Positions 15,792 to 22,102 of a stretch of DNA of 24,000 bases are shown here, piece by piece; within the stretch, counting starts at the first letter, position 1, and each line of letters opens with the position of its first letter. The stretch covers positions 12,258-36,257 of the forward strand of contig CBDVCK010000006.1 in NCBI GenBank assembly GCA_965372465.1, written 5' to 3'. A program made the translations under genes and the position numbers. Origin of the DNA: an uncultured Thermoplasmata archaeon. GTDB lineage: Archaea > Thermoplasmatota > Thermoplasmata > GCA-020350865. The notes below the pieces were generated by a model. It did not search any database and was not told the DNA's origin. It saw only the letters and a program-made list of their open reading frames with translations.

Positions 15792-16685
15792 CTAAATCTC
15801 CACACTTTTGGCTTCTTTCCACCTTTTCCAGGTTTTATGAGCCTCGAAGGATGAAAAGAAGAACAATGCCATTGCGATAAGCAGCTCTCTGATTTCAAAT
15901 CCAACATTGTATGTTAAGTAACTGGCTGTTTCCAAATTCACATTTATTGTTATAACAATGGAGCCCATCAAAGCCACTAATAAAAACTGAACGAAAGGAT
16001 ACCTGAAACTACTAAAGAAGTTCGAAAATCTCCCTGAAAGAATGATGAGAACAGGAATAAATAAGGCTATTACCGCAAGGGGGATAAACCAATAGAATCC
16101 CGGGTAGGAGTAAAAGACCAATGAGATGCAAAAGCAGGCAATCAGGTTGTGGTTCACAACCGGCATTTGGAGTTTTTCAAAAATCCCAGCAGCCCATCTG
16201 GATCCCAATTTGAGGAGCGGAAATATAATACCTATGGTAATGAGAAAGAGGGCCATGAGAACGTGCATCCAGGTCAGTGAATTTTCAATCCCGATGTTGT
16301 GAACCGTTGTCTCACCCTGCATGTTCACTTCTTCAAGGCCTTCAGGGGTGGAGAATCCGAACAATCGCTGTCCATAGCTTAGCTCCTCGAGAAAAAAGAA
16401 GAGAAACATACCCATAAAGAGAATGTAAAAGAGGCGCAGCCGCAATGCATGGCCCTTGACTTTTGAAGTCATGAAAAATGCAAATCCCCAAAGACAGGCA
16501 CCGAATAGGAATAACAATGCCTGCATATATTCTATGAGTGCATCCTCCTTCATGATTTCCACAGTACTTTCAAAATCCAAGAATGCATAGATGATTAGGA
16601 TTAGACCAGTTAAGAAAAATAGTAGAAGGATGAGGATACTTATTGGGCATCTTTTCTTTAACTTTTGAATCCTGCTCATCTTCAC
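15792..16685 (-). CDS. Polytopic integral membrane protein of unknown function
   Basis: 297-aa ORF consisting almost entirely of hydrophobic segments (about 8 predicted by eye). No recognisable motif. Confidence 0.7.
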   Translation of the reverse strand: MKMSRIQKLKKRCPISILILLLFFLTGLILIIYAFLDFESTVEIMKEDALIEYMQALLFLFGACLWGFAFFMTSKVKGHALRLRLFYILFMGMFLFFFLEELSYGQRLFGFSTPEGLEEVNMQGETTVHNIGIENSLTWMHVLMALFLITIGIIFPLLKLGSRWAAGIFEKLQMPVVNHNLIACFCISLVFYSYPGFYWFIPLAVIALFIPVLIILSGRFSNFFSSFRYPFVQFLLVALMGSIVITINVNLETASYLTYNVGFEIRELLIAMALFFFSSFEAHKTWKRWKEAKSVEI

Positions 16686-16735
16686 TCAACATTGAGAATA
16701 AAGATTCATGTAAATCTATTTTGCTATCCTTAAAA

Positions 16736-16761
16736 AATAGCCCCGGGTGGATTCAGGAACC
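16736..16761 (-). repeat. Orphan duplicate of the 3' end (T-loop to 3 nt past the discriminator) of the adjacent tRNA-Gln-like gene
   Basis: aatagccccgggtggattc (16736-16754) is identical to 16845-16863. Similarity continues as aggaacc versus gaacc with a 2-nt indel. Same orientation as the tRNA, ~90 bp downstream of it. Confidence 0.8.
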
Positions 16762-16784
16762 CGCTTTTTTCATAAAAAAGTGGG
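16760..16784 (-). terminator. Hairpin with U-run downstream of the glnS-proximal tRNA
   Basis: cccgctttttt-cat-aaaaaagtggg forms an 11-bp stem with one G.U pair. Either strand reads a stem containing a T6 run. Confidence 0.5.
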
Positions 16785-16846
16785 CCAAATAAAGGGCATC
16801 TGTTTTGGGAAATTGATAATATCCGATAGCCCGAAATGTGAAATAA

Positions 16847-16920
16847 TAGCCCCGGGTGGATTCGAACCACCGTCTCGGGATCCAGAATCCCGAATGATTG
16901 ACCAGCTACAATACGGGGGT
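16847..16920 (-). tRNA. tRNA-Gln(CUG)-like, divergent; possibly a pseudogene
   Basis: The minus strand folds as ACCCCCG UA UUGU AGCUGGUCAA UCAU U CGGGA UUCUGGA UCCCG AGAC GGUGG UUCGAAU CCACC CGGGGCU A (74 nt). The anticodon and T arms are perfect, with GG in the D loop and an A1-U72 pair. Defects are a C2.C71 mismatch, a D stem with only 2 Watson-Crick pairs (U10, U22), and discriminator A73. Confidence 0.6.
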
Positions 16921-17014
16921 ATTTGGCTTAGACATTACTGGTATCAAATACCCCCTATTAGTCAGAAAAGTGCCTGGAGGATGTCGAATTTTCTTTTCTT
17001 ACTACTACGGGGCT
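16915..17014 (-). promoter_or_regulatory. Two-hairpin upstream module, copy a (H2 + H1 + orphan tRNA-Gln 5' fragment)
   Basis: H2: gggggtatttg (16915-25) / caaataccccc (16945-55), perfect 11 bp with a 19-nt loop. H1: gtcagaaaag (16961-70) / cttttcttac (16993-17002), 9 of 10 bp with a 22-nt loop. The fragment tactacggggct (17003-14) reads AGCCCCGUAGUA on the minus strand. Confidence 0.6.
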
Positions 17015-17074
17015 TTTTGATTTGTAAGGTATGTGAAAATAAAGTTAAAACTTTATTATTTCAAAAGGGCGGTT

Positions 17075-18760
17075 CTATTTCTTCTGCTGCTGCTTCTGAA
17101 TCTTGGCCCAGGTGTCCCGAAGGCCTACTGTCCTATTGAAGACCAGTTTTTCTGATATCGAATCTGGGTCCACGCAGAAGTACCCCAAACGCTCGAACTG
17201 TATTCTATCAAGTGGCTTTAAATCCTTAACTGCCGGCTCCACCTTGCACCGTGAGAGCACCTCAAGAGAGTTGGGGTTTATGAAATCCTTGAAATTTGCA
17301 TCCTTCTGCCCAGACGGATCAGGTACCGTGAACAGCTTGTCGTATAGTCTTACCTCGCAATCCAGGGCATGGGCAGCTGAGACCCAGTGAAGCGTGGATT
17401 TAACCTTGCGTCCATCGGGAGCGTTGCCCCCTTTGGTTTCTGGATCCACTGTGCATCTGAGCTCGACAATCTTCCCATCCTCCTTTATGGCTTCCTTGCA
17501 GGAAACAAAATAAGCATATCTGAACCTGACCTCCCTTCCAGGAGCCAATCTGTAGAATTTCTTGGGGGGGTCCTCCATGAAATCCTCCTGCTCTATGTAG
17601 AGCTCCCTGGAAAAAGGGACCTTACGGGTTCCGGCTTTTGGGTCCTCTGGATTGTTCACTGCCTCCATATCCTCTGTTTTATCTTCAGGATAATTTTCGA
17701 TAACCACCTTCAATGGACGAAGAACTCCCATGAACCTTGGAGCCGTTTTATTAAGGTCGTCACGGACGCAGTGCTCCAAGAATTCGAAATCTACATTACT
17801 GTTGACCTTGGCCACTCCGATTCGCTTGGCAAAGGCCCGAATCGCGGAAGGTGAATAACCGCGTTTTCGTATACCACTTATAGTAGGTAGTCTTGGATCG
17901 TCCCACCCCGAAACATGGCCTCCATCCACCAACATCTTAAGCAAGCGTTTACTCATCACAGTATAGGTAATGTTCAACCTTGCAAACTCGATCTGCTGTG
18001 GATGATATACCTCTATTTGATCTAAAAACCAATCGTACAGGGGTCTATGGTTTTCAAACTCCAATGTGCAAATGGAATGGGTGATGTTCTCAATGGAATC
18101 TTCAAGTCCATGGGCCCAGTCGTACATTGGATATATACACCATTTATCACCTGTATTATGATGGCTGGCATGTAAGATCCTATAGACAATGGGGTCCCGC
18201 ATGTTCATATTGGGGTGAGTCATATCTATCTTGGCCCGTAGCACCTTTTCACCATCGCCAAATTCCCCGGCCCTCATGCGTTCGAAAAGGTCAAGATTCT
18301 CCTCAATTGAGCGGTTTCGATAGGGGCTGTTCTCTCCGGGAGTGGTCCAGGTCCCGCGTGTTTTGCTAATCTCTTCGGCTGTTGAATCGTCAACGTAAGC
18401 CTTGCCTTTTTTTGTTAATTGCACTGCATATTCGTACATCTGATCAAAATAATCTGATGCGAAAAAGAGTCTGTCTTCCCAATCGAATCCAAGCCAGCGG
18501 ACATCCTCGATAATGGATTTTACATATTCCTCCTCTTCCTTGGCAGGATTAGTATCGTCGAACCTCAAATTGCACTTGCCTTTGTATTCCTCTGCAATCC
18601 CGAAGTTCAGGCAGATGGACTTTGCATGTCCGATGTGGAGGTAGCCGTTGGGCTCAGGGGGGAATCTGGTGTGCACTCTTCCTCCGTATTTGTTGGTTCT
18701 CAGGTCTTCATTGATGATGTCGCGGATGAAATCGCGTCTTGAAGGTTCTTTTTCACTCAT
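17075..18760 (-). CDS. glnS: Glutaminyl-tRNA synthetase, bacterial type
   Basis: From the ATG at 18760 ([20 protein letters not shown]...) the 561-aa protein is colinear with E. coli GlnS as I remember it: [27 protein letters not shown] (HIGH), [26 protein letters not shown] (KMSKS), [39 protein letters not shown]. The track's 40-codon N-terminal extension (to 18880) runs into repeat A1 and is not credible. Confidence 0.92.
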
Positions 18761-18800
18761 AATGAGTCCCCAGTTGTTTAAAAGGTCTATAATTGTTTTC

Positions 18801-18812
18801 ATTATAAATATT
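18801..18812 (-). promoter_or_regulatory. TATA-box candidate for glnS
   Basis: The minus strand reads aatatttataat ~45 nt upstream of the ATG at 18760, between element A1 and the start codon. Confidence 0.4.
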
Positions 18813-18839
18813 TGGGTTAAACTCTCAAATGTAAAGAAA

Positions 18840-18905
18840 CAGCCCCGGCCACCTGAGTCTTTAAGAACCCAGCTCTTCAAAGAATAATGTGAAGTTGAAA
18901 GGGCT
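18840..18905 (-). repeat. A1: degenerate copy of the 66-nt tRNA-Gln acceptor-mimic element
   Basis: Same length and ends as A2 and A3 (...GGUGGCCGGGGCUG 3'). The 5' end has decayed to AGCCC-UUU-CAAC, which leaves an A.G mismatch in the second helix. Confidence 0.5.
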
Positions 18906-18933
18906 CTGCTGAATTATAGCATTTTAAAAAGGA

Positions 18934-18999
18934 CAGCCCCGGCCACCTGAGTGCTTAAGAACCCATTATATCTCAACATAACACGAAGGTGAAGGGGCT
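18934..18999 (-). ncRNA. A2: 66-nt tRNA-like element carrying the tRNA-Gln acceptor ends; candidate structured RNA
   Basis: Minus strand: AGCCCC UU CACC [40 nt] GGUG GCC GGGGCU G. It begins 32 nt after the tRNA-Gln(UUG) 3' end and is followed by CCUUUUUAAAA. Confidence 0.4.
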
Positions 19000-19031
19000 G
19001 CTCTGATTAAATGCTTATAAAAGTAGAAGAG

Positions 19032-19102
19032 CAGCCCCGGCCAGAATCGAACTGGCGCTAAGGGATCCAAAGTCCCTTATGCTACCGCTACACCACGGGG
19101 CT
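19032..19102 (-). tRNA. tRNA-Gln(UUG), no intron
   Basis: AGCCCCG UG GUGU AGCGGUA GCAU A AGGGA CUUUGGA UCCCU UAGC GCCAG UUCGAUU CUGGC CGGGGCU G. This is a clean cloverleaf of 71 nt with A1-U72, G10 and discriminator G73. CCA is not encoded. Confidence 0.9.
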
Positions 19103-19192
19103 TTTCTGATATATATGTTATATTCAAAGCCCCTAGCAGTAAAAAAAGTGCTCGGATATTGTTGGGTTTCCTTTTTTTACCACCACGGGGCT
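19097..19192 (-). promoter_or_regulatory. Two-hairpin upstream module, copy b
   Basis: H2: ggggcttt (19097-104) / aaagcccc (19126-33), 21-nt A/T-rich loop. H1: gtaaaaaaag (19139-48) / ctttttttac (19171-80), perfect 10 bp with a 22-nt loop. The fragment caccacggggct (19181-92) equals the first 12 nt of the tRNA. Confidence 0.6.
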
Positions 19193-19256
19193 ATGATTAT
19201 TGCGAATTACAGCGAAATAGGCCCGGGGGCTGGAGGGAAACCGATTCTCAGTATTT
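19181..19256 (-). repeat. C1: conserved element (24-nt and 35-nt cores identical to C2)
   Basis: caccacggggctatgattattgcg (19181-204) and cccgggggctggagggaaaccgattctcagtattt (19222-56) are identical to 19688-711 and 19730-64. The 17-18 nt between the two cores has diverged. Confidence 0.7.
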
Positions 19257-19358
19257 ATTAGATAGTTTACCTCCTCATGCTTAAGACCCCAGGGCTAAAT
19301 AGCACAATACTGGGGGTAAAGGACTGATGCATATTTATACTTTTTAAATTGAATTAAA

Positions 19359-19368
19359 AGCCCCGGCC
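19359..19368 (-). repeat. Isolated tRNA-Gln 3' acceptor fragment
   Basis: agccccggcc is identical to the first 10 nt (plus strand) of the A elements and both tRNA-Gln genes. It lies 19 nt before A3. Confidence 0.5.
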
Positions 19369-19386
19369 CAACGAATTTTGTTTATA

Positions 19387-19452
19387 CAGCCCCGGCCATC
19401 TGAGTGCTTAAGAATTAAGCATTTCCCAACATAACACGAAGATGCAGGGGCT
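19387..19452 (-). ncRNA. A3: 66-nt tRNA-like element carrying the tRNA-Gln acceptor ends; candidate structured RNA
   Basis: Minus strand: AGCCCC UG CAUC [40 nt] GAUG GCC GGGGCU G. Compared with A2, the second helix carries a compensatory C-G to U-A change. The inner 40 nt keeps 14-nt conserved blocks at each end (UUCGUGUUAUGUUG, UUCUUAAGCACUCA). Confidence 0.4.
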
Positions 19453-19483
19453 GTTTCGAATATTAGCTATTAAAAGATAGAAA

Positions 19484-19606
19484 CAGCCCCGGCCAGAATC
19501 GAACTGGCGCCAAGAGATCTCTCCGCTCCGCAGGAGCGTTTGCCCCTCGAATATTTCATATTCTGCGGGTCCAGAGTCTCTTATGCTACCGCTACACCAC
19601 GGGGCT
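19484..19606 (-). tRNA. tRNA-Gln(CUG) with a 52-nt intron at the canonical 37/38 position
   Basis: Exon 1 is 19606..19571 (AGCCCCGUGGUGUAGCGGUAGCAUAAGAGACUCUGG). The intron is 19570..19519. Exon 2 is 19518..19484 (AUCUCUUGGCGCCAGUUCGAUUCUGGCCGGGGCUG). The spliced product is 71 nt. It matches the UUG gene except in the anticodon arm and variable loop. CUCU/GGAG pairing places G37|A in a bulge, and the intron contains a CCGCAG/CUGCGG helix. Confidence 0.85.
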
Positions 19607-19699
19607 ATTTGAATTAGCATTGTTGGGTGCAAATAACCCCAAGCAAAAAGAAAAGTGTTGGGTTGATGCTGGTTGTTCTTTTCTTTTCACCACGGGGCT
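19601..19699 (-). promoter_or_regulatory. Two-hairpin upstream module, copy c
   Basis: H2: ggggctattt (19601-10) / aaataacccc (19631-40), 20-nt loop. Its one non-Watson-Crick position is a U.G wobble only in the minus-sense RNA. H1: aaaagaaaag (19646-55) / cttttctttt (19678-87), 22-nt loop. Fragment caccacggggct (19688-99). Confidence 0.6.
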
Positions 19700-19764
19700 A
19701 TGATTATTGCGTATTACCAGTGTAATAGACCCGGGGGCTGGAGGGAAACCGATTCTCAGTATTT
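19688..19764 (-). repeat. C2: conserved element, second copy
   Basis: See C1. The minus-sense internal hairpin GGG(C/U)CUAU-N22/23-AUAGCCCC is retained in both copies, with one internal mismatch in each. Confidence 0.7.
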
Positions 19765-19784
19765 CCAAACAGTTTGCCTCAAAG

Positions 19785-19885
19785 ACCACGGGGCTTTTCA
19801 GTTATATATGCTATATTCAAAGCCCCTAGCAGTAAAAAAAGCAACTGGAGATTACTGGAAATTCTTTTTTTACTACCACGGGGCT
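19785..19885 (-). promoter_or_regulatory. Two-hairpin upstream module, copy d; it has no tRNA body attached
   Basis: 5' fragment accacggggct (19785-95). H2: ggggcttt (19790-97) / aaagcccc (19819-26). H1: gtaaaaaaag (19832-41) / ctttttttac (19864-73). Next fragment taccacggggct (19874-85), followed by a decayed copy accaccacggaact (19889-902). Confidence 0.6.
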
Positions 19886-19938
19886 TTTACCACCACGGAA
19901 CTATTTTATAAATCGGAATGGATAAACGGTTATAAAAA

Positions 19939-21501
19939 TCATTGGATAATTTCCTTTAATCGATTAACAACAAAATCCTTATCCAGTGTAGACAGGAAAT
20001 AACCCAACCTGGGACCGTAATTTTGGTTCAATATAGCCTTATAGACGAGCTGGAAAGCAGTTTTGGATTTAAGACCTTGATTTTGTGCCAAATCATAAAT
20101 CGCATTGTGGATGGCATCAGGAGTCCAATCGCCATGGCCGAGATTGGTTGATAGTTCTTCAAGATAGCTCTTATGTTCTGGCTCCAAAGGGAATTCAGGC
20201 ATATCCCTGGCGATGGAAAACTTCACTTTGTCAGGTGCGAAATTATCGAGCCAGAATTTCACACATTCAATTCTCTGTTTGAGGTGTGCCTCATCCATAT
20301 CCCCCAGACTTTCAAAGTGTTCGGTTCTTTTTAGGATTTTTAAAATACCCTCAAAATCCTCCTTTATCTGAACAAGGCTTACAATATGTCTGTATGGAAT
20401 GTGAAGAGGGAGTTTGGAAGGGATATCAAATGGCTGTGAGAGCTCGTAGGTTCTTGCCAGTTCCTTTTCGATCTTCTCTATCCTCTTGGATTTATCATCG
20501 GATGAACCTTCAAAATATCGACTCTCGGTTGCATCGTATTCGTCCACAAGGTTCAGAATTCCAAGACCCGGATCGAAATCCAGATGCTTGTTGGGATTGT
20601 TTCTCAGAACAAAGAATCTGAATACCTCAGGAGGTGTCATCTTGAGCATATCCGCACCGCTGACAACCACACCTGTCGAGGAAGACATGGCACCCTTTCC
20701 CTTGAGTTGTATCCATTCGTAGACCACAAAATTCGGGGCCTTTCTTTCAAAAATCTCTTCTGATATCATCTTAGCAGTGTCATATGAGCCGCCAGCAGCG
20801 GCATGGTCCTTGCCAAAAGACTCGAACGTGACCCCCAAAAACCACCACCTGGCAGGCCAGTCAACTCTCCACGGTAGCTTGCCGTCATCCTTTCTGAGGT
20901 CAGCTTTACCTTCATGACCGCAGAGGCATTTGTAACTCACAATAGGGAACTGGTAACCTGTAATCTCTGCGTTGGTTATCCTGCCGCACTCACCGCATTT
21001 TGGGTTGTAGGGAAACCAATTCTCGGGAAGATCGCGTTTCGAAATTTCCATGAGTATTTCCCTGATTCTACTTGCATTATCAAGAACTCTTTTCGAGGCT
21101 TCAGCGTACATTCCTTTTGCATACATTTCATGGGAATACATTACTTCAGCTTCTATTCCGAGAGTTTTTGTTGCTGCAAGAAAGGGATTTAAGAAATGGT
21201 CTGCATATGAACCGTGTCCTCCGCAGGGACATGGGATTTCTGAAAGTGGTTTTCCCACCTGCTCTTTGTAACTTTTATCAAGAAAAGGATAGACCTTTCT
21301 CAGAGGGTCGATTGTATCTCCTATATAGATCAAACGGGCTTCTTCCCCATTTTCTTTCAAACCCCTGCAAATCACCTCTCCGGTGAGTATCTCACGCATA
21401 TTGCCTACATGGATATCACCGGAGGGGGTGATTCCTGTTGCAATCACATGCTCTTTTGAAAAACCCTGGAGCCTTTTGCTCTCAACGTCAACCCAGTGCA
21501 T
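19939..21501 (-). CDS. lysK: Lysyl-tRNA synthetase, class I
   Basis: From the ATG at 21501 (MHWVDVESKRL...) the protein has GITPSGDIHVGN (HIGH variant), GKGAMSSSTG (KMSKS variant) and the CPCG...C.C Zn-like insert. The start lies 4 nt after the upstream gene's stop. The track's 18-codon extension overlaps that gene. Confidence 0.9.
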   Translation of the reverse strand: MHWVDVESKRLQGFSKEHVIATGITPSGDIHVGNMREILTGEVICRGLKENGEEARLIYIGDTIDPLRKVYPFLDKSYKEQVGKPLSEIPCPCGGHGSYADHFLNPFLAATKTLGIEAEVMYSHEMYAKGMYAEASKRVLDNASRIREILMEISKRDLPENWFPYNPKCGECGRITNAEITGYQFPIVSYKCLCGHEGKADLRKDDGKLPWRVDWPARWWFLGVTFESFGKDHAAAGGSYDTAKMISEEIFERKAPNFVVYEWIQLKGKGAMSSSTGVVVSGADMLKMTPPEVFRFFVLRNNPNKHLDFDPGLGILNLVDEYDATESRYFEGSSDDKSKRIEKIEKELARTYELSQPFDIPSKLPLHIPYRHIVSLVQIKEDFEGILKILKRTEHFESLGDMDEAHLKQRIECVKFWLDNFAPDKVKFSIARDMPEFPLEPEHKSYLEELSTNLGHGDWTPDAIHNAIYDLAQNQGLKSKTAFQLVYKAILNQNYGPRLGYFLSTLDKDFVVNRLKEIIQ

Positions 21502-21505
21502 TCTC

Positions 21506-22102
21506 TCACGCAATTGTGCGAGCCCGTATGAGTGATCTAGTAGGCACACCATCAAGTTCGTATAGTGTTGTCTTGTTCACGATTACTATGGCCAATTGGG
21601 GATTTGCTCCCTGCTCCTTTAAATCTGCGATGGAGGCCCTCACAACATGCCCGGTACTAATAACATCGTCCACAATCACGACATCCTTACCTTCCAGTGT
21701 AGCATAATTCGAGCTGAAGGTACCCTTGCCTTCATCAGTAACTGGCGGCCTGTAAATGCTCAGCTCTATACCTAGGTCCTCTGCAACCATGGTGGCCAAG
21801 GGTATTCCGTTAATAGCTATGCCTACAACACAATCAACCTTTTCTATCTCACGTTTTTCCATCTCTTCCAAGATTATATCAGAAAATATACCGGCGATCA
21901 GACCTATACGACCCCCATAAACACCAATGGACCTCCAACCGATCTTCACATCCAAAGGAGGTGTCTCCTCCTTTACATTCCTTGTCAAAAGCCAGGTAAC
22001 AGTTGCAACTGATAAGTGCAGTTCGTCAGAGATTTCGCTTTCACTGAGACCGTTTTTCTTAAGTTCTAGGACCTTTTCAACGAGAGTGTCTATACTTTTC
22101 AT
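21506..22102 (-). CDS. PyrE-like phosphoribosyltransferase-domain protein with an N-terminal HTH (GfcR / COG0856-type putative regulator)
   Basis: The start is moved to the ATG at 22102 (MKSIDTLVEKV...), with a GGGAGGG SD upstream. HTH-like segment LSESEISDELHLSVATVTWLL. PRPP-binding loop VVIVDDVISTGHV. Confidence 0.7.
   Translation of the reverse strand: MKSIDTLVEKVLELKKNGLSESEISDELHLSVATVTWLLTRNVKEETPPLDVKIGWRSIGVYGGRIGLIAGIFSDIILEEMEKREIEKVDCVVGIAINGIPLATMVAEDLGIELSIYRPPVTDEGKGTFSSNYATLEGKDVVIVDDVISTGHVVRASIADLKEQGANPQLAIVIVNKTTLYELDGVPTRSLIRARTIA

What the first reader, a model, noticed from the sequence alone, without database searches (positions are those of the whole stretch)
18840..19452. 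Three 66-nt elements that copy both acceptor ends of tRNA-Gln but not its body
On the minus strand A1 (18905..18840), A2 (18999..18934) and A3 (19452..19387) are each exactly 66 nt. They start with AGCCC(C) and end with GGCCGGGGCU-G. This is the same 5' hexamer, 3' dodecamer and G73-equivalent as the two bona fide tRNA-Gln genes. Inside is a second 4-bp helix that covaries: CACC/GGUG in A2 and CAUC/GAUG in A3, a double compensatory change. A 40-nt insert follows, whose length is constant in all three copies. Its terminal 14-nt blocks are conserved between A2 and A3 while the centre differs. A2 and A3 each sit directly 3' of a tRNA-Gln and are followed by T-rich tracts. An acceptor-stem mimic of this kind would be cut out by RNase P and RNase Z like a tRNA. 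This gives a stable tRNA-like RNA with no anticodon arm. Its function is unknown: it could be a decoy or regulator for GlnRS, CCA-adding or amidotransferase enzymes, a processing punctuation mark, or a decaying pseudo-tRNA. I know of no described family like this.
Basis: seen in the sequence. Interest (0 to 1): 0.75.

Follow-up and report, generated by a model that had tools for sequence, protein, structure and literature searches.

The report
Hairpin repeats copying tRNA-Gln ends
Beside the glutamine-tRNA genes of a Thermoplasmata archaeon sit conserved ~65-base hairpins that carry the tRNA's two end sequences but none of its body. They are real, lineage-specific repeat modules that are probably transcribed and trimmed together with the tRNA, but no function has been shown.

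Summary
A1, A2 and A3 are 66 nt, start with AGCCC(C/U) and end with UGGCCGGGGCUG, as the neighbouring tRNA-Gln genes do. They fold as long hairpins. They are not tRNAs: Rfam gives no hit even at E<=10, and the interior has no similarity to the tRNA body.

The window comes from an archaeon with a bacterial-type GlnRS. The same element occurs in at least 9 related Thermoplasmata loci (22 strong covariance-model hits). All hits lie in tRNA-Gln clusters, none in more distant relatives and none in 755 kb of bacterial GlnRS loci. A 12-bp inner helix covaries, and GUUAU and UCUUAAGCA are invariant.

The elements are part of something larger. This is a periodic array of ~65-71-nt modules: upstream "B" hairpins, the tRNA itself, then A hairpins. 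The modules are separated by ~30-nt linker hairpins whose ends pair flush with the module ends and also covary. The 3' 11-12-mer of A tracks changes in the neighbouring tRNA, which indicates concerted evolution.

Best reading (inferred, confidence ~0.45): these are tRNA-Gln-seeded repeat modules, co-transcribed as the tRNA's trailer and removed by RNase P and tRNase Z, like t-elements. Main rival: palindromic DNA repeats with no function. A decoy role for GlnRS is not excluded.

The parts
19387..19452 (-). A3, a 66-nt hairpin module. It has a 6-bp closing stem AGCCCC/GGGGCU, a 2x3 internal loop, a 12-bp helix, invariant GUUAU and UCUUAAGCA, and a 17-nt variable apex.
   Evidence: z -3.07; 76.4 bits
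18934..18999 (-). A2, a 66-nt hairpin module, followed directly by a U5 tract.
   Evidence: z -3.06; 76.8 bits
18840..18905 (-). A1, a degraded copy with several broken pairs in the inner helix. It lies ~80 nt upstream of the GlnRS start, and a TATA-like TTTATAAT lies between the two.
   Evidence: z -1.05; 61.9 bits
19263..19325 (-). A4, a fourth, strongly decayed A copy. It is truncated at its 3' side by a ~75-nt insert that is repeated at 19718-19764.
   Evidence: 26.9 bits; family D6
19484..19606 (-). tRNA-Gln(CUG), type 1 (G73), with a 52-nt intron after position 37.
19032..19102 (-). tRNA-Gln(UUG), type 1 (G73).
19453..19483 (-). Linker hairpin between tRNA(CUG) and A3. G73-UUUC ... GAAA-C(-1) forms an 11-nt inverted repeat together with the two acceptor strands.
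19000..19031 (-). Linker hairpin between tRNA(UUG) and A2, of the form G73-CUCU ... AGAG-C(-1). This is the compensated variant of the same helix.
19356..19369 (-). Isolated copy of the tRNA 3' end plus a U tract (GGGCCGGGGCUUUU). It closes the first array. The same kind of piece ends the arrays in L081 and L097.
19128..19192 (-). B2, an upstream hairpin module. Its 5' arm equals the first 12 nt of the tRNA followed by an A tract, and its 3' arm is a U tract followed by ...GGGGCU. It lies 25 nt upstream of tRNA(UUG), and a TTTGAAT (TATA-like) motif follows it.
   Evidence: (z -4.41)
19635..19699 (-). B1, the upstream hairpin module before tRNA(CUG).
19821..19885 (-). B0, the first hairpin module of the array. 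It is followed by a stub, AGCCCCGUGGU at 19795..19785.
19929..19945 (-). Conserved promoter-like CCAATGATTTTTATAAC at the LysRS stop, ~27 nt upstream of the first module-like sequence.
16950..17014 (-). B hairpin upstream of the type-2 tRNA-Gln. Its 3' arm ends GGGGGU.
16847..16920 (-). tRNA-Gln(CUG), type 2 (A73, different D and T arms), with a C2.C71 mismatch in this genome.
16738..16765 (-). Copy of the T arm and 3' acceptor strand of the type-2 tRNA, ~85 nt downstream of it and preceded by a small A/U hairpin. It is conserved in L081, L084, L097 and L098.
   Evidence: (D8)
17075..18760 (-). Bacterial-type glutaminyl-tRNA synthetase gene (context).

Best explanation
What it is (well supported). 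A1-A3 belong to a lineage-specific family of ~65-nt hairpin modules. They are diverged units of a tandem array seeded by the tRNA-Gln gene. One unit is a module of 65-71 nt closed by AGCCCC/GGGGCU, followed by a linker hairpin of ~30 nt. The order in the array is: promoter, B hairpin(s), tRNA-Gln, linker, A hairpin(s), U tract. The whole ~505-nt block is duplicated for the CUG and UUG tRNAs. The module ends are kept identical to the tRNA ends by concerted evolution with the neighbouring tRNA gene.

How it works (inferred). The A modules are transcribed as the 3' trailer of tRNA-Gln, because the U>=5 terminators mostly come only after the last module. Each presents an acceptor-stem-like helix with the tRNA's own 5' end, 3' strand and discriminator. 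tRNase Z, cutting after G73 and G66, and RNase P, cutting before A+1, can therefore resolve the precursor. In this reading the modules act as t-element-like processing or punctuation modules and as trailers bearing the terminator. They are released as ~65-nt hairpin RNAs whose further role, if any, is unknown.
For: Shown:
- Family and conservation. There are 22 non-redundant covariance-model hits of 50-89 bits in 10 sources (window, L081-L085, L091, L097-L099). All lie inside tRNA-Gln clusters. There are none in L087, L088 or L100, which have tRNA-Gln next to GlnRS but no arrays. There are none in 755 kb of bacterial GlnRS loci.
- Structure. 86.7% of cells are paired, against at most 57% when the partner is slid. 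Cells with a change on both sides number 14 against 7.2 +/- 2.3 (0/500 shuffles). The covariation score is 0.130 against 0.100 (2/500). The same G16-C49 to A-U change appears in three sequence backgrounds.
- Purifying pattern between genomes. Identity is 0.85 for the A 5' arm and 0.89 for the 3' arm. It is 0.67 for the spacer, 0.66 for the apex and 0.51 for the downstream flank.
- Linker helix. It sits flush with both modules and covaries: UUUC/GAAA, CUCU/AGAG, UUAC/GUAA. N(-1) complements N73: C with G in type 1, U with A in type 2.
- Type-2 counterparts. The type-2 tRNA-Gln has its own A' elements with the same architecture of 6 bp, a 2x2 loop and a long covarying helix.
- Terminators. The first U>=5 run after type-1 tRNAs usually lies at +97 to +196, just after the last module.
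- B hairpins. These show RNA-type pairing on the tRNA strand: 24 G.U against 1 A.C, and covariation 0.309 against 0.163 (0/500).

Against: - There is no expression or end-mapping data.
- A lacks a T-loop, which RNase P and tRNase Z normally use. The closing stem is only 6 bp, followed by a conserved UU/CC loop.
- C(-1) can pair with G66 and extend the helix past the expected RNase P site.
- For A itself the wobble count gives no strand information: 29 G.U against 24 A.C, each dominated by one conserved position.
- L083 carries the element inverted relative to the tRNA.
- In L081 and L082 the A' 3' end follows the tRNA change to GGAGCU, but the 5' hexamer stays AGCCCC. L099 copies have AACCCC. 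Selection on the closing stem is therefore weak.
- Some spacers contain U4 or U5 runs.
- In the window's type-2 unit, the inverted repeat between modules is preserved at the cost of both stems within the modules. This fits a DNA-level process at least as well.
Confidence: 0.45

Rival explanations
1. Palindromic DNA repeats with no function. Tandem duplication of the tRNA-Gln ends plus linker, unequal crossing-over, gene conversion and template-switch 'quasi-palindrome correction' would generate and homogenise hairpin-shaped units. The apparent compensatory changes would then be mechanistic by-products, and any transcripts would be simply degraded.
For: - The layout is periodic, with a ~505-nt block duplication and varying copy number: 1-4 A copies per array, plus truncated and decayed copies.
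- The 3' 11-12-mer of A tracks the tRNA (GGUC in L099, GGAGCUA in type-2 A') without compensation on the 5' side.
- The downstream trailer is repeated together with the 3' end (L081 7076-7264).
- L083 carries an inverted copy.
- In the window's type-2 unit, the B 3' arm and the tRNA 5' end changed together.
- Assemblies break at these arrays, with 100-N gaps in L083 and L084.
Against: - Non-Watson-Crick features are conserved for long periods rather than being 'corrected': U19.G46 in 20 of 22 copies, C11.A54 in the CCCCC type, and the UU/CC loop in both A and A'.
- GUUAU and UCUUAAGCA are invariant, and the arms are far better conserved than the flanks.
- B hairpins show 24 G.U against 1 A.C, which points to RNA-level pairing on one strand.
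Confidence: 0.28
2. A regulatory decoy or sRNA. The excised hairpins present the acceptor-end identity set (A1-U72, G2-C71, G73) of the G73-type tRNA-Gln. They would bind GlnRS, the CCA-adding enzyme, GluRS or GatDE, tuning the balance between direct and indirect Gln-tRNA synthesis.
For: - The arrays occur only in the clade with the acquired bacterial-type GlnRS, and they lie next to that gene.
- The elements copy exactly G73 and the acceptor stem. The type-2 A' copies carry A73 instead.
- GatD is also present, near GlnRS in L099.
- The invariant GUUAU and UCUUAAGCA motifs suggest a specific partner.
Against: - There are no binding or expression data.
- Relatives with the same GlnRS lack the elements (L087, L088, L100).
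- In most genomes an opposite-strand gene separates the array from GlnRS.
- The closing stem is not strictly maintained (L099, A').
- No antisense target above chance was found in the window.
Confidence: 0.12
3. Scars or decoy sites (att) of integrative elements. Repeated integration and excision at tRNA-Gln would leave duplicated copies of the tRNA 3' end.
For: - Copies of the tRNA 3' end occur as direct repeats downstream of the gene, including a fragment of T arm plus acceptor strand after the type-2 tRNA.
- tRNA genes are classic integration targets (own knowledge).
Against: - No integrase or mobile-element genes lie in or beside the arrays.
- The repeats are only 11-12 nt long and come with the complementary 5' hexamer.
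- The elements are conserved with covariation in at least 9 genomes.
- The tRNA ends and the A core have no true match in IMG/VR. Three scans gave nothing. The looser A-core scan gave 11 exact hits, but none scores above 16 bits with the covariance model.
Confidence: 0.05
4. Decaying tRNA-Gln pseudogenes, or a miniature inverted-repeat transposable element (MITE) that targets tRNA-Gln.
For: - The length (65-66 nt) is close to that of the tRNA (71 nt), and both ends are shared.
- The closing stem resembles terminal inverted repeats.
Against: - There is no residual similarity to the tRNA body (z < 1.4), and no hit to the tRNA model at E<=10.
- The interior is conserved and covarying, not decaying.
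- There is no target-site duplication.
- All 22 strong hits in ~160 kb lie in tRNA-Gln clusters.
Confidence: 0.05

Closest known systems
t-elements (tRNA-like elements) of Haloferax volcanii and plant mitochondria (PMC4326828; Hoelzle et al. 2008 and 2012 as cited there; PMC1920247)
   Same: They are non-tRNA structures that keep a tRNA-like acceptor end. They sit beside other RNAs in a precursor and serve, or are proposed to serve, as cleavage signals for RNase P and tRNase Z. Forner et al. also describe plain stem-loops that 'might mimic tRNA acceptor stems'.
   Different: Classical t-elements keep a T arm (GGTTCRANYCC). The A and B modules have none and replace it by a long helix. They also occur in arrays around one specific tRNA and copy that tRNA's exact end sequences. 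Only the T-arm-containing fragment at 16765..16738 resembles a classical t-element. Cleavage is untested here.
rtT repeats of the E. coli tyrT operon (Rfam RF00391; own knowledge of Rossi et al. 1981 and Boesl & Kersten 1991)
   Same: They are tandem repeat units directly downstream of a tRNA gene. Each ends with a copy of the tRNA's 3' end, is co-transcribed with the tRNA, and is processed into a small RNA. They arose by unequal recombination.
   Different: They are bacterial, with 178-nt units. There is no sequence or structure relationship (no Rfam hit). rtT units do not carry the complementary 5' acceptor strand and do not form acceptor-closed hairpins.
tRNA-linked hairpin RNAs released by tRNase Z: MHV68 TMERs (PMC4838037) and MALAT1/mascRNA (own knowledge)
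   Same: The architecture is a tRNA or tRNA-like structure followed by one or two ~60-nt hairpins in one transcript, with ends defined by the tRNA-processing enzymes.
   Different: They are eukaryotic or viral Pol III/Pol II systems. The hairpins there are pre-miRNAs without acceptor-end mimicry. No Dicer-like pathway is known in archaea.
att duplications of tRNA 3' ends by integrative elements (own knowledge; Williams 2002)
   Same: They are direct repeats of the 3' end of a tRNA gene, downstream of that gene.
   Different: There are no integrase or cargo genes here. The repeats are 11-12 nt long and paired with a 5'-strand copy. They are conserved with covariation across genomes.

Membership tests
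tRNA (Rfam RF00005) | Cloverleaf with D, anticodon and T arms that scores with the tRNA covariance model | tested here: not met
   There is no hit on A1-A3 even at E<=10. ARAGORN finds only the true tRNAs. The interior is not similar to the tRNA-Gln body.
t-element (tRNA-like processing element) | Acceptor-stem-like helix with tRNA-like 5' and 3' ends | tested here: met
   A 6-bp AGCCCC/GGGGCU stem plus G, identical to the neighbouring tRNA-Gln.
t-element (tRNA-like processing element) | T arm with the conserved GGTTCRANYCC loop motif | tested here: not met
   The motif is absent from all A, A' and B copies. It is present only in the separate fragment at 16765..16738 and its homologues.
t-element (tRNA-like processing element) | Cleavage by RNase P at the 5' end and by tRNase Z after the discriminator | not testable with these tools
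   This needs RNA end mapping or in vitro processing.
tRNA-linked tandem repeat of the rtT type | Repeat units directly downstream of a tRNA gene, each ending in a copy of the tRNA's 3' end | tested here: met
   1-4 units per array, each ending (U)GGCCGGGGCU(G/U). In L081 the trailer is repeated together with the 3' end.
tRNA-linked tandem repeat of the rtT type | Homology to RtT RNA (RF00391) | tested here: not met
   No Rfam match at gathering score or at E<=10.
Integrative-element att remnant | An integrase or mobile-element genes between or beside the repeated tRNA segments | tested here: not met
   The neighbours are LysRS, GlnRS, a glyoxalase-like gene and housekeeping genes.
Integrative-element att remnant | The same sequence occurs in a virus or plasmid (attP) | tested here: not met
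   Three IMG/VR scans gave 0 hits. The looser A-core scan gave 11 exact hits, but all score at most 16 bits with the covariance model and are chance matches. Plasmid collections of these archaea were not available.
MITE | Terminal inverted repeats plus a target-site duplication, with copies dispersed in the genome | tested here: inconclusive
   Inverted ends are present. No target-site duplication was seen. All 22 strong hits in ~160 kb lie in tRNA-Gln clusters, but whole genomes could not be scanned.
Transcription terminator | A U tract directly after the structure | tested here: inconclusive
   U5-U7 follows the last module of most arrays (A2; L081, L084b, L091c, L098c, L099b) but not every copy.

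The most novel reading that the evidence does not exclude
In a Thermoplasmata clade that, unusually for archaea, acquired a bacterial GlnRS while keeping GatD, the tRNA-Gln genes would have spawned a set of acceptor-end mimics. These are A and B for the G73-type tRNA and A' for the A73-type. They would be excised by RNase P and tRNase Z into stable ~65-nt RNAs. Those RNAs would act as decoys or regulators for the enzymes that read the acceptor end (GlnRS, ND-GluRS/GatDE, the CCA-adding enzyme), partitioning two tRNA-Gln species between the direct and indirect pathways.
Probability: 0.1. Interest if true: 0.85.

Novelty: new variant of a known kind. Interest (0 to 1): 0.5.

Why it matters
If these modules are transcribed and processed, they would be a natural archaeal case of 'minimal' RNase P/tRNase Z substrates: an acceptor stem without a T arm. 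They would be used in arrays around a single tRNA.

They could also provide a handle on how a horizontally acquired bacterial GlnRS was integrated into archaeal Gln-tRNA synthesis. The literature describes that pathway as exclusively, or almost exclusively, indirect in archaea (PMC8762117, PMC3439900).

If they are only DNA-level palindromic repeats, they still show concerted evolution. tRNA ends seed structured tandem repeats, and the compensatory-looking changes then need not reflect RNA selection. That is a caution for covariation-based ncRNA discovery.

Tried and rejected
- tRNA or pseudo-tRNA: rejected. Rfam in E-value mode and ARAGORN with introns give nothing on the A elements. Alignment of the A interior to the tRNA body is no better than shuffles.
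- Any known RNA family: none found.
- Virus or integrative-element origin: four IMG/VR scans used the A 3' part, the tRNA 3' and 5' parts and the A core. Three gave nothing. The core pattern gave 11 chance hits that fail the covariance model.
- GlnRS leader or autoregulatory operator: rejected as a general role. Only in the window and L098 does an A copy lie just upstream of GlnRS. A TATA-like box lies between A1 and the start codon, and in most relatives an opposite-strand gene intervenes.
- Strand assignment of A from G.U against A.C counts: uninformative (29 against 24).
- Antisense targets of the variable apex within the window: none above chance.
- K-turn, H/ACA, C/D box and bulge-helix-bulge (BHB) motifs were looked for by eye in the A consensus. 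None was found (sequence inspection only).
- The metagenome pattern scan yielded only two true members (L089, L091) and six chance hits.
- The MAFFT alignment A1 misplaces one gap between the 65- and 66-nt forms. The structure was therefore checked by a manual register and a covariance-model-fitted alignment.
Full report
**Observation**

The three elements are exactly where and as described. On the minus strand A3 is 19452..19387, A2 is 18999..18934 and A1 is 18905..18840, each 66 nt. They start AGCCCC (A1: AGCCCU) and end UGGCCGGGGCUG.

These are the first 6 and last 12 nt of two tRNA-Gln genes. ARAGORN and Rfam place them at 19102..19032 (UUG) and 19606..19484 (CUG, 52-nt intron after position 37). 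A third tRNA-Gln(CUG), of a different type with A73, lies at 16920..16847.

The motif CCGGGGCT with up to 1 mismatch occurs 28 times against 12.9 +/- 3.8 expected. The hits are concentrated at 16.7-19.9 kb.

A2 and A3 fold as one long hairpin (-26.3 and -25.1 kcal/mol, z about -3.1). A1 has lost several pairs (z -1.05).

**Genomic setting**

All relevant genes are on the minus strand. Class-I LysRS is at 21555..19939, followed by a 1.2-kb gene-free stretch full of tRNA-Gln-like pieces. GlnRS follows at 18760..17075, then the third tRNA-Gln.

The GlnRS is of the bacterial type, about 63-73% identical to enzymes from many bacterial phyla. It is 80-89% identical to proteins that NCBI labels Thermoplasmata or Methanomassiliicoccales archaeon. 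Together with the tRNA intron, the XPD-type helicase and the class-I LysRS, this makes the window archaeal.

**Not a tRNA and not a known RNA**

Rfam finds only the three tRNAs. In E-value mode over 16650-20000, no tRNA or other credible family touches A1-A3 at E<=10. The interior of A (positions 7-54) aligns to the tRNA-Gln body no better than shuffled sequence does (z between -0.6 and 1.4).

**Relatives**

I fetched loci by exact GlnRS homologues and by one metagenome pattern scan (two true members). The same element is present in L081, L082, L083, L084, L085/L086, L089/L091, L097, L098 and L099.

A covariance model was built from 15 copies.
- It finds 22 non-redundant hits of 50-89 bits, all inside tRNA-Gln clusters, plus a decayed fourth copy in the window at 19325..19263.
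- It finds nothing in L087, L088 or L100. Their GlnRS is 80-81% identical and tRNA-Gln genes flank GlnRS, but there are no arrays.
- It finds nothing in 755 kb of bacterial GlnRS loci.

The family is therefore confined to a subclade, with GlnRS 83% or more identical to the window's.

**Anatomy of A**

From the outside in:
- A 6-bp closing stem AGCCCC/GGGGCU.
- A conserved internal loop, UU/CC or UG/GCC.
- A 12-bp helix (positions 9-20 with 45-56).
- Invariant GUUAU (18-22) and UCUUAAGCA (40-48).
- A 17-nt variable apex.

On the model-fitted alignment:
- 86.7% of cells pair, against at most 57% when the partner is slid.
- Cells changed on both sides number 14 against 7.2 +/- 2.3 (0/500 shuffles).
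- The covariation score is 0.130 against 0.100 (2/500).
- Pair 13-52 is CG 8 / UA 7 / GC 2, and pair 16-49 is GC 16 / AU 4. The latter change appears in three different sequence backgrounds.

The covariation is real but modest, and the sequences are related to one another.

Between genomes the two arms are 85-89% identical. The spacer is 67% identical, the apex 66% and the downstream flank 51%.

**The elements are part of a larger periodic array**

1. Every type-1 tRNA-Gln is followed by a 31-34-nt linker and then A. The linker ends pair flush with both modules. G73 pairs with C(-1) of A, followed by UUUC/GAAA, CUCU/AGAG or UUAC/GUAA. These are three mutually compensated variants. With the acceptor strands this forms an 11-nt perfect inverted repeat. 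The computed MFE of tRNA+linker+A2 uses that helix, and pairs the tRNA 5' strand with the 3' strand of A2.
2. Every tRNA-Gln is preceded by a ~64-nt 'B' hairpin. In the window these are at 19885, 19699, 19192 and 17014. The 5' arm of B is the first 11-12 nt of the tRNA followed by an A tract. The 3' arm is a U tract followed by ...GGGGCU. The inner 15 bp of B are 93% paired. Covariation is 0.309 against 0.163 (0/500), and there are 24 G.U against 1 A.C. This argues for RNA pairing on the tRNA strand. The B-to-tRNA linker is again flush (GGGGCU-AUUUG ... CAAAU-AGCCCC).
3. The type-2 tRNA-Gln (A73) has its own A' elements (L081 7109-7170 and 7203-7264; L082 5340-5399; L097 8154-8214). They share the architecture of 6 bp, a 2x2 loop and a long covarying helix. 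They have U(-1) opposite A73 and hit model R1 weakly.
4. The ~505-nt block is tandemly duplicated in the window.
5. A conserved promoter-like CCAATGATTTTTATAA box at the LysRS stop lies ~27 nt upstream of the first module of the array. That first module may be a B hairpin, a degenerate stub, or in L089 the tRNA itself.

**Concerted evolution**

The 3' 11-12-mer of A follows the neighbouring tRNA.
- In L099 the tRNA ends GGUCGGGGCUG, and so do both A copies.
- In L081 and L082 the type-2 tRNA changed to AGCUCC/GGAGCUA. The A' 3' ends are GGAGCUA, but their 5' hexamer stays AGCCCC, leaving a C.A mismatch.
- In L081 the trailer after the tRNA is repeated together with the 3' end.

The ends are therefore copied by recombination within the array rather than maintained only by selection for pairing. 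L083 carries the A core inverted relative to its tRNA (67 bits on the opposite strand against 21).

In the window's type-2 unit the tRNA has C2 (a C2.C71 mismatch), and the 3' arm of the upstream B ends GGGGGU. The inverted repeat between modules thus stays perfect while both stems within the modules are damaged. This is unexplained.

**Transcription**

After type-1 tRNAs the first U>=5 run usually lies at +97 to +196, which is directly after the last A module. Examples are A2 at +101, L099 at +97 and L081 at +124. There are exceptions, such as a U5 in one linker of L097. Arrays often end with an isolated GGCCGGGGCU-UUUU piece; in the window this is at 19369..19356. This fits co-transcription of tRNA, linker and A, but it is not proof.

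**Mechanism**

Shown: this is a conserved, structured, tRNA-Gln-linked repeat family whose ends are kept identical to the tRNA ends.

Inferred: the A modules are transcribed as the tRNA trailer. Because they present the tRNA's own acceptor helix and discriminator, they are resolved from the precursor by tRNase Z and RNase P. The tRNA-like 't-elements' of Haloferax and plant mitochondria are processed in the same way (PMC4326828, PMC1920247).

Against this: A has no T-loop, the closing stem is weakly maintained, C(-1) can extend the helix, one copy is inverted, and wobble statistics for A give no strand information (29 G.U against 24 A.C).

The main rival is a purely DNA-level palindromic tandem repeat, shaped by unequal crossing-over, gene conversion and quasi-palindrome correction. 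Three points speak against it:
- Non-canonical features are conserved for long periods (U19.G46, C11.A54, the UU/CC loop).
- The GUUAU and UCUUAAGCA motifs are invariant.
- B shows a bias towards G.U pairs.

An integrative-element origin is unlikely, for three reasons.
- There are no integrase genes.
- There are no true viral matches. Searches gave nothing. One search gave 11 chance hits, none above 16 bits.
- The elements are conserved across genomes.

A decoy role for GlnRS or GatDE is attractive, because the elements copy exactly the acceptor-end identity region and occur only in the clade with the acquired GlnRS. There is no evidence for it.

**Verdict**

The family is undescribed in Rfam. 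It is best filed as a new variant of tRNA-linked, tRNA-end-mimicking elements (t-element or rtT-like). Its function is unproven.

Noticed in passing
window 17075-18760 (-); L099 7858-9150: This archaeon encodes a bacterial-type GlnRS. It is 63-73% identical to many bacterial enzymes and 80-89% identical to those of Thermoplasmata MAGs. The literature states that archaea lack GlnRS or almost always use the indirect route (PMC3439900, PMC8762117). A relative (L099) also has GatD 1.2 kb from GlnRS, so both pathways may coexist.
   Followed up: partly
window 19032-19102 and 19484-19606 versus 16847-16920: There are two kinds of tRNA-Gln. Type 1 has a short D loop and G73 (G73 being the bacterial GlnRS identity base) and lies upstream of GlnRS. 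Type 2 has A73 and different D and T arms, and lies downstream. They may be substrates of different pathways. L100 has A73 on both flanking tRNAs, and L087 and L088 have G73.
   Followed up: partly
window 19128-19192, 19635-19699, 19821-19885, 16950-17014: 'B' hairpins lie upstream of every tRNA-Gln. The 5' arm equals the first 11-12 nt of the tRNA plus an A tract. The 3' arm is a U tract plus GGGGCU. They covary strongly and show 24 G.U against 1 A.C. Each is followed by a TTTGAAT (TATA-like) motif ~25-30 nt before the tRNA.
   Followed up: yes
window 16847-16920 and 16950-17014: The type-2 tRNA-Gln has a C2.C71 mismatch, whereas relatives have G2-C71. The 3' arm of the upstream B hairpin carries the complementary change (GGGGGU). 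This keeps an 11-nt inverted repeat across the linker perfect.
   Followed up: partly
window 16738-16803; L081 7050-7076; L084 7133-7160; L097 8059-8121; L098 6765-6800: A conserved copy of the type-2 tRNA's T arm and 3' acceptor strand lies 85-105 nt downstream of that tRNA. It is preceded by a variable hairpin. It looks like a classical t-element or tRNA 3'-half remnant. In L098 it is present although no type-2 tRNA was detected.
   Followed up: partly
window 19484-19606; L085 3957-4060; L099 3670-3793 and 4100-4223: The tRNA-Gln intron after position 37 varies. It is 52 nt in the window and 31 nt in L085. It is absent in L081, L097 and L098. In L099 it is present in both the CUG and the UUG genes, which suggests gene conversion between the two units.
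   Followed up: no
window 19210-19256 and 19718-19764: A ~47-75-nt segment (...ACTGAGAATCGGTTTCCCTCCAGCCCCCGGG.CTATT...) is repeated 508 nt apart. It precedes B1 and B2 and truncates the decayed A4 copy. It was not seen in the relatives examined by eye, and its origin is unknown.
   Followed up: no
L083 4407-4473: The A element is inverted relative to its tRNA-Gln. It keeps AGCCCC...GGGGCU ends, as expected from recombination between the closing-stem inverted repeats.
   Followed up: partly
L083 4150-4249; L084 4155-4254: Runs of exactly 100 N lie inside the arrays of two 'complete' NCBI genomes. They are probably scaffold gaps caused by the repeats.
   Followed up: no
window 19929-19945; L081 3720; L085 3796; L097 3734; L089: A conserved CCAATGATTTTTATAA(C/T) box overlaps the LysRS stop codon, ~27 nt upstream of the first module of the array. 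It is a likely promoter for the array.
   Followed up: partly
L087 3255-4786; L088 3273-4783: In the more distant relatives without arrays, RNA 3'-phosphate cyclase (RTC) and CinA genes lie directly upstream of tRNA-Gln and GlnRS. There tRNA-Gln(UUG) is followed closely by tRNA-Glu.
   Followed up: no
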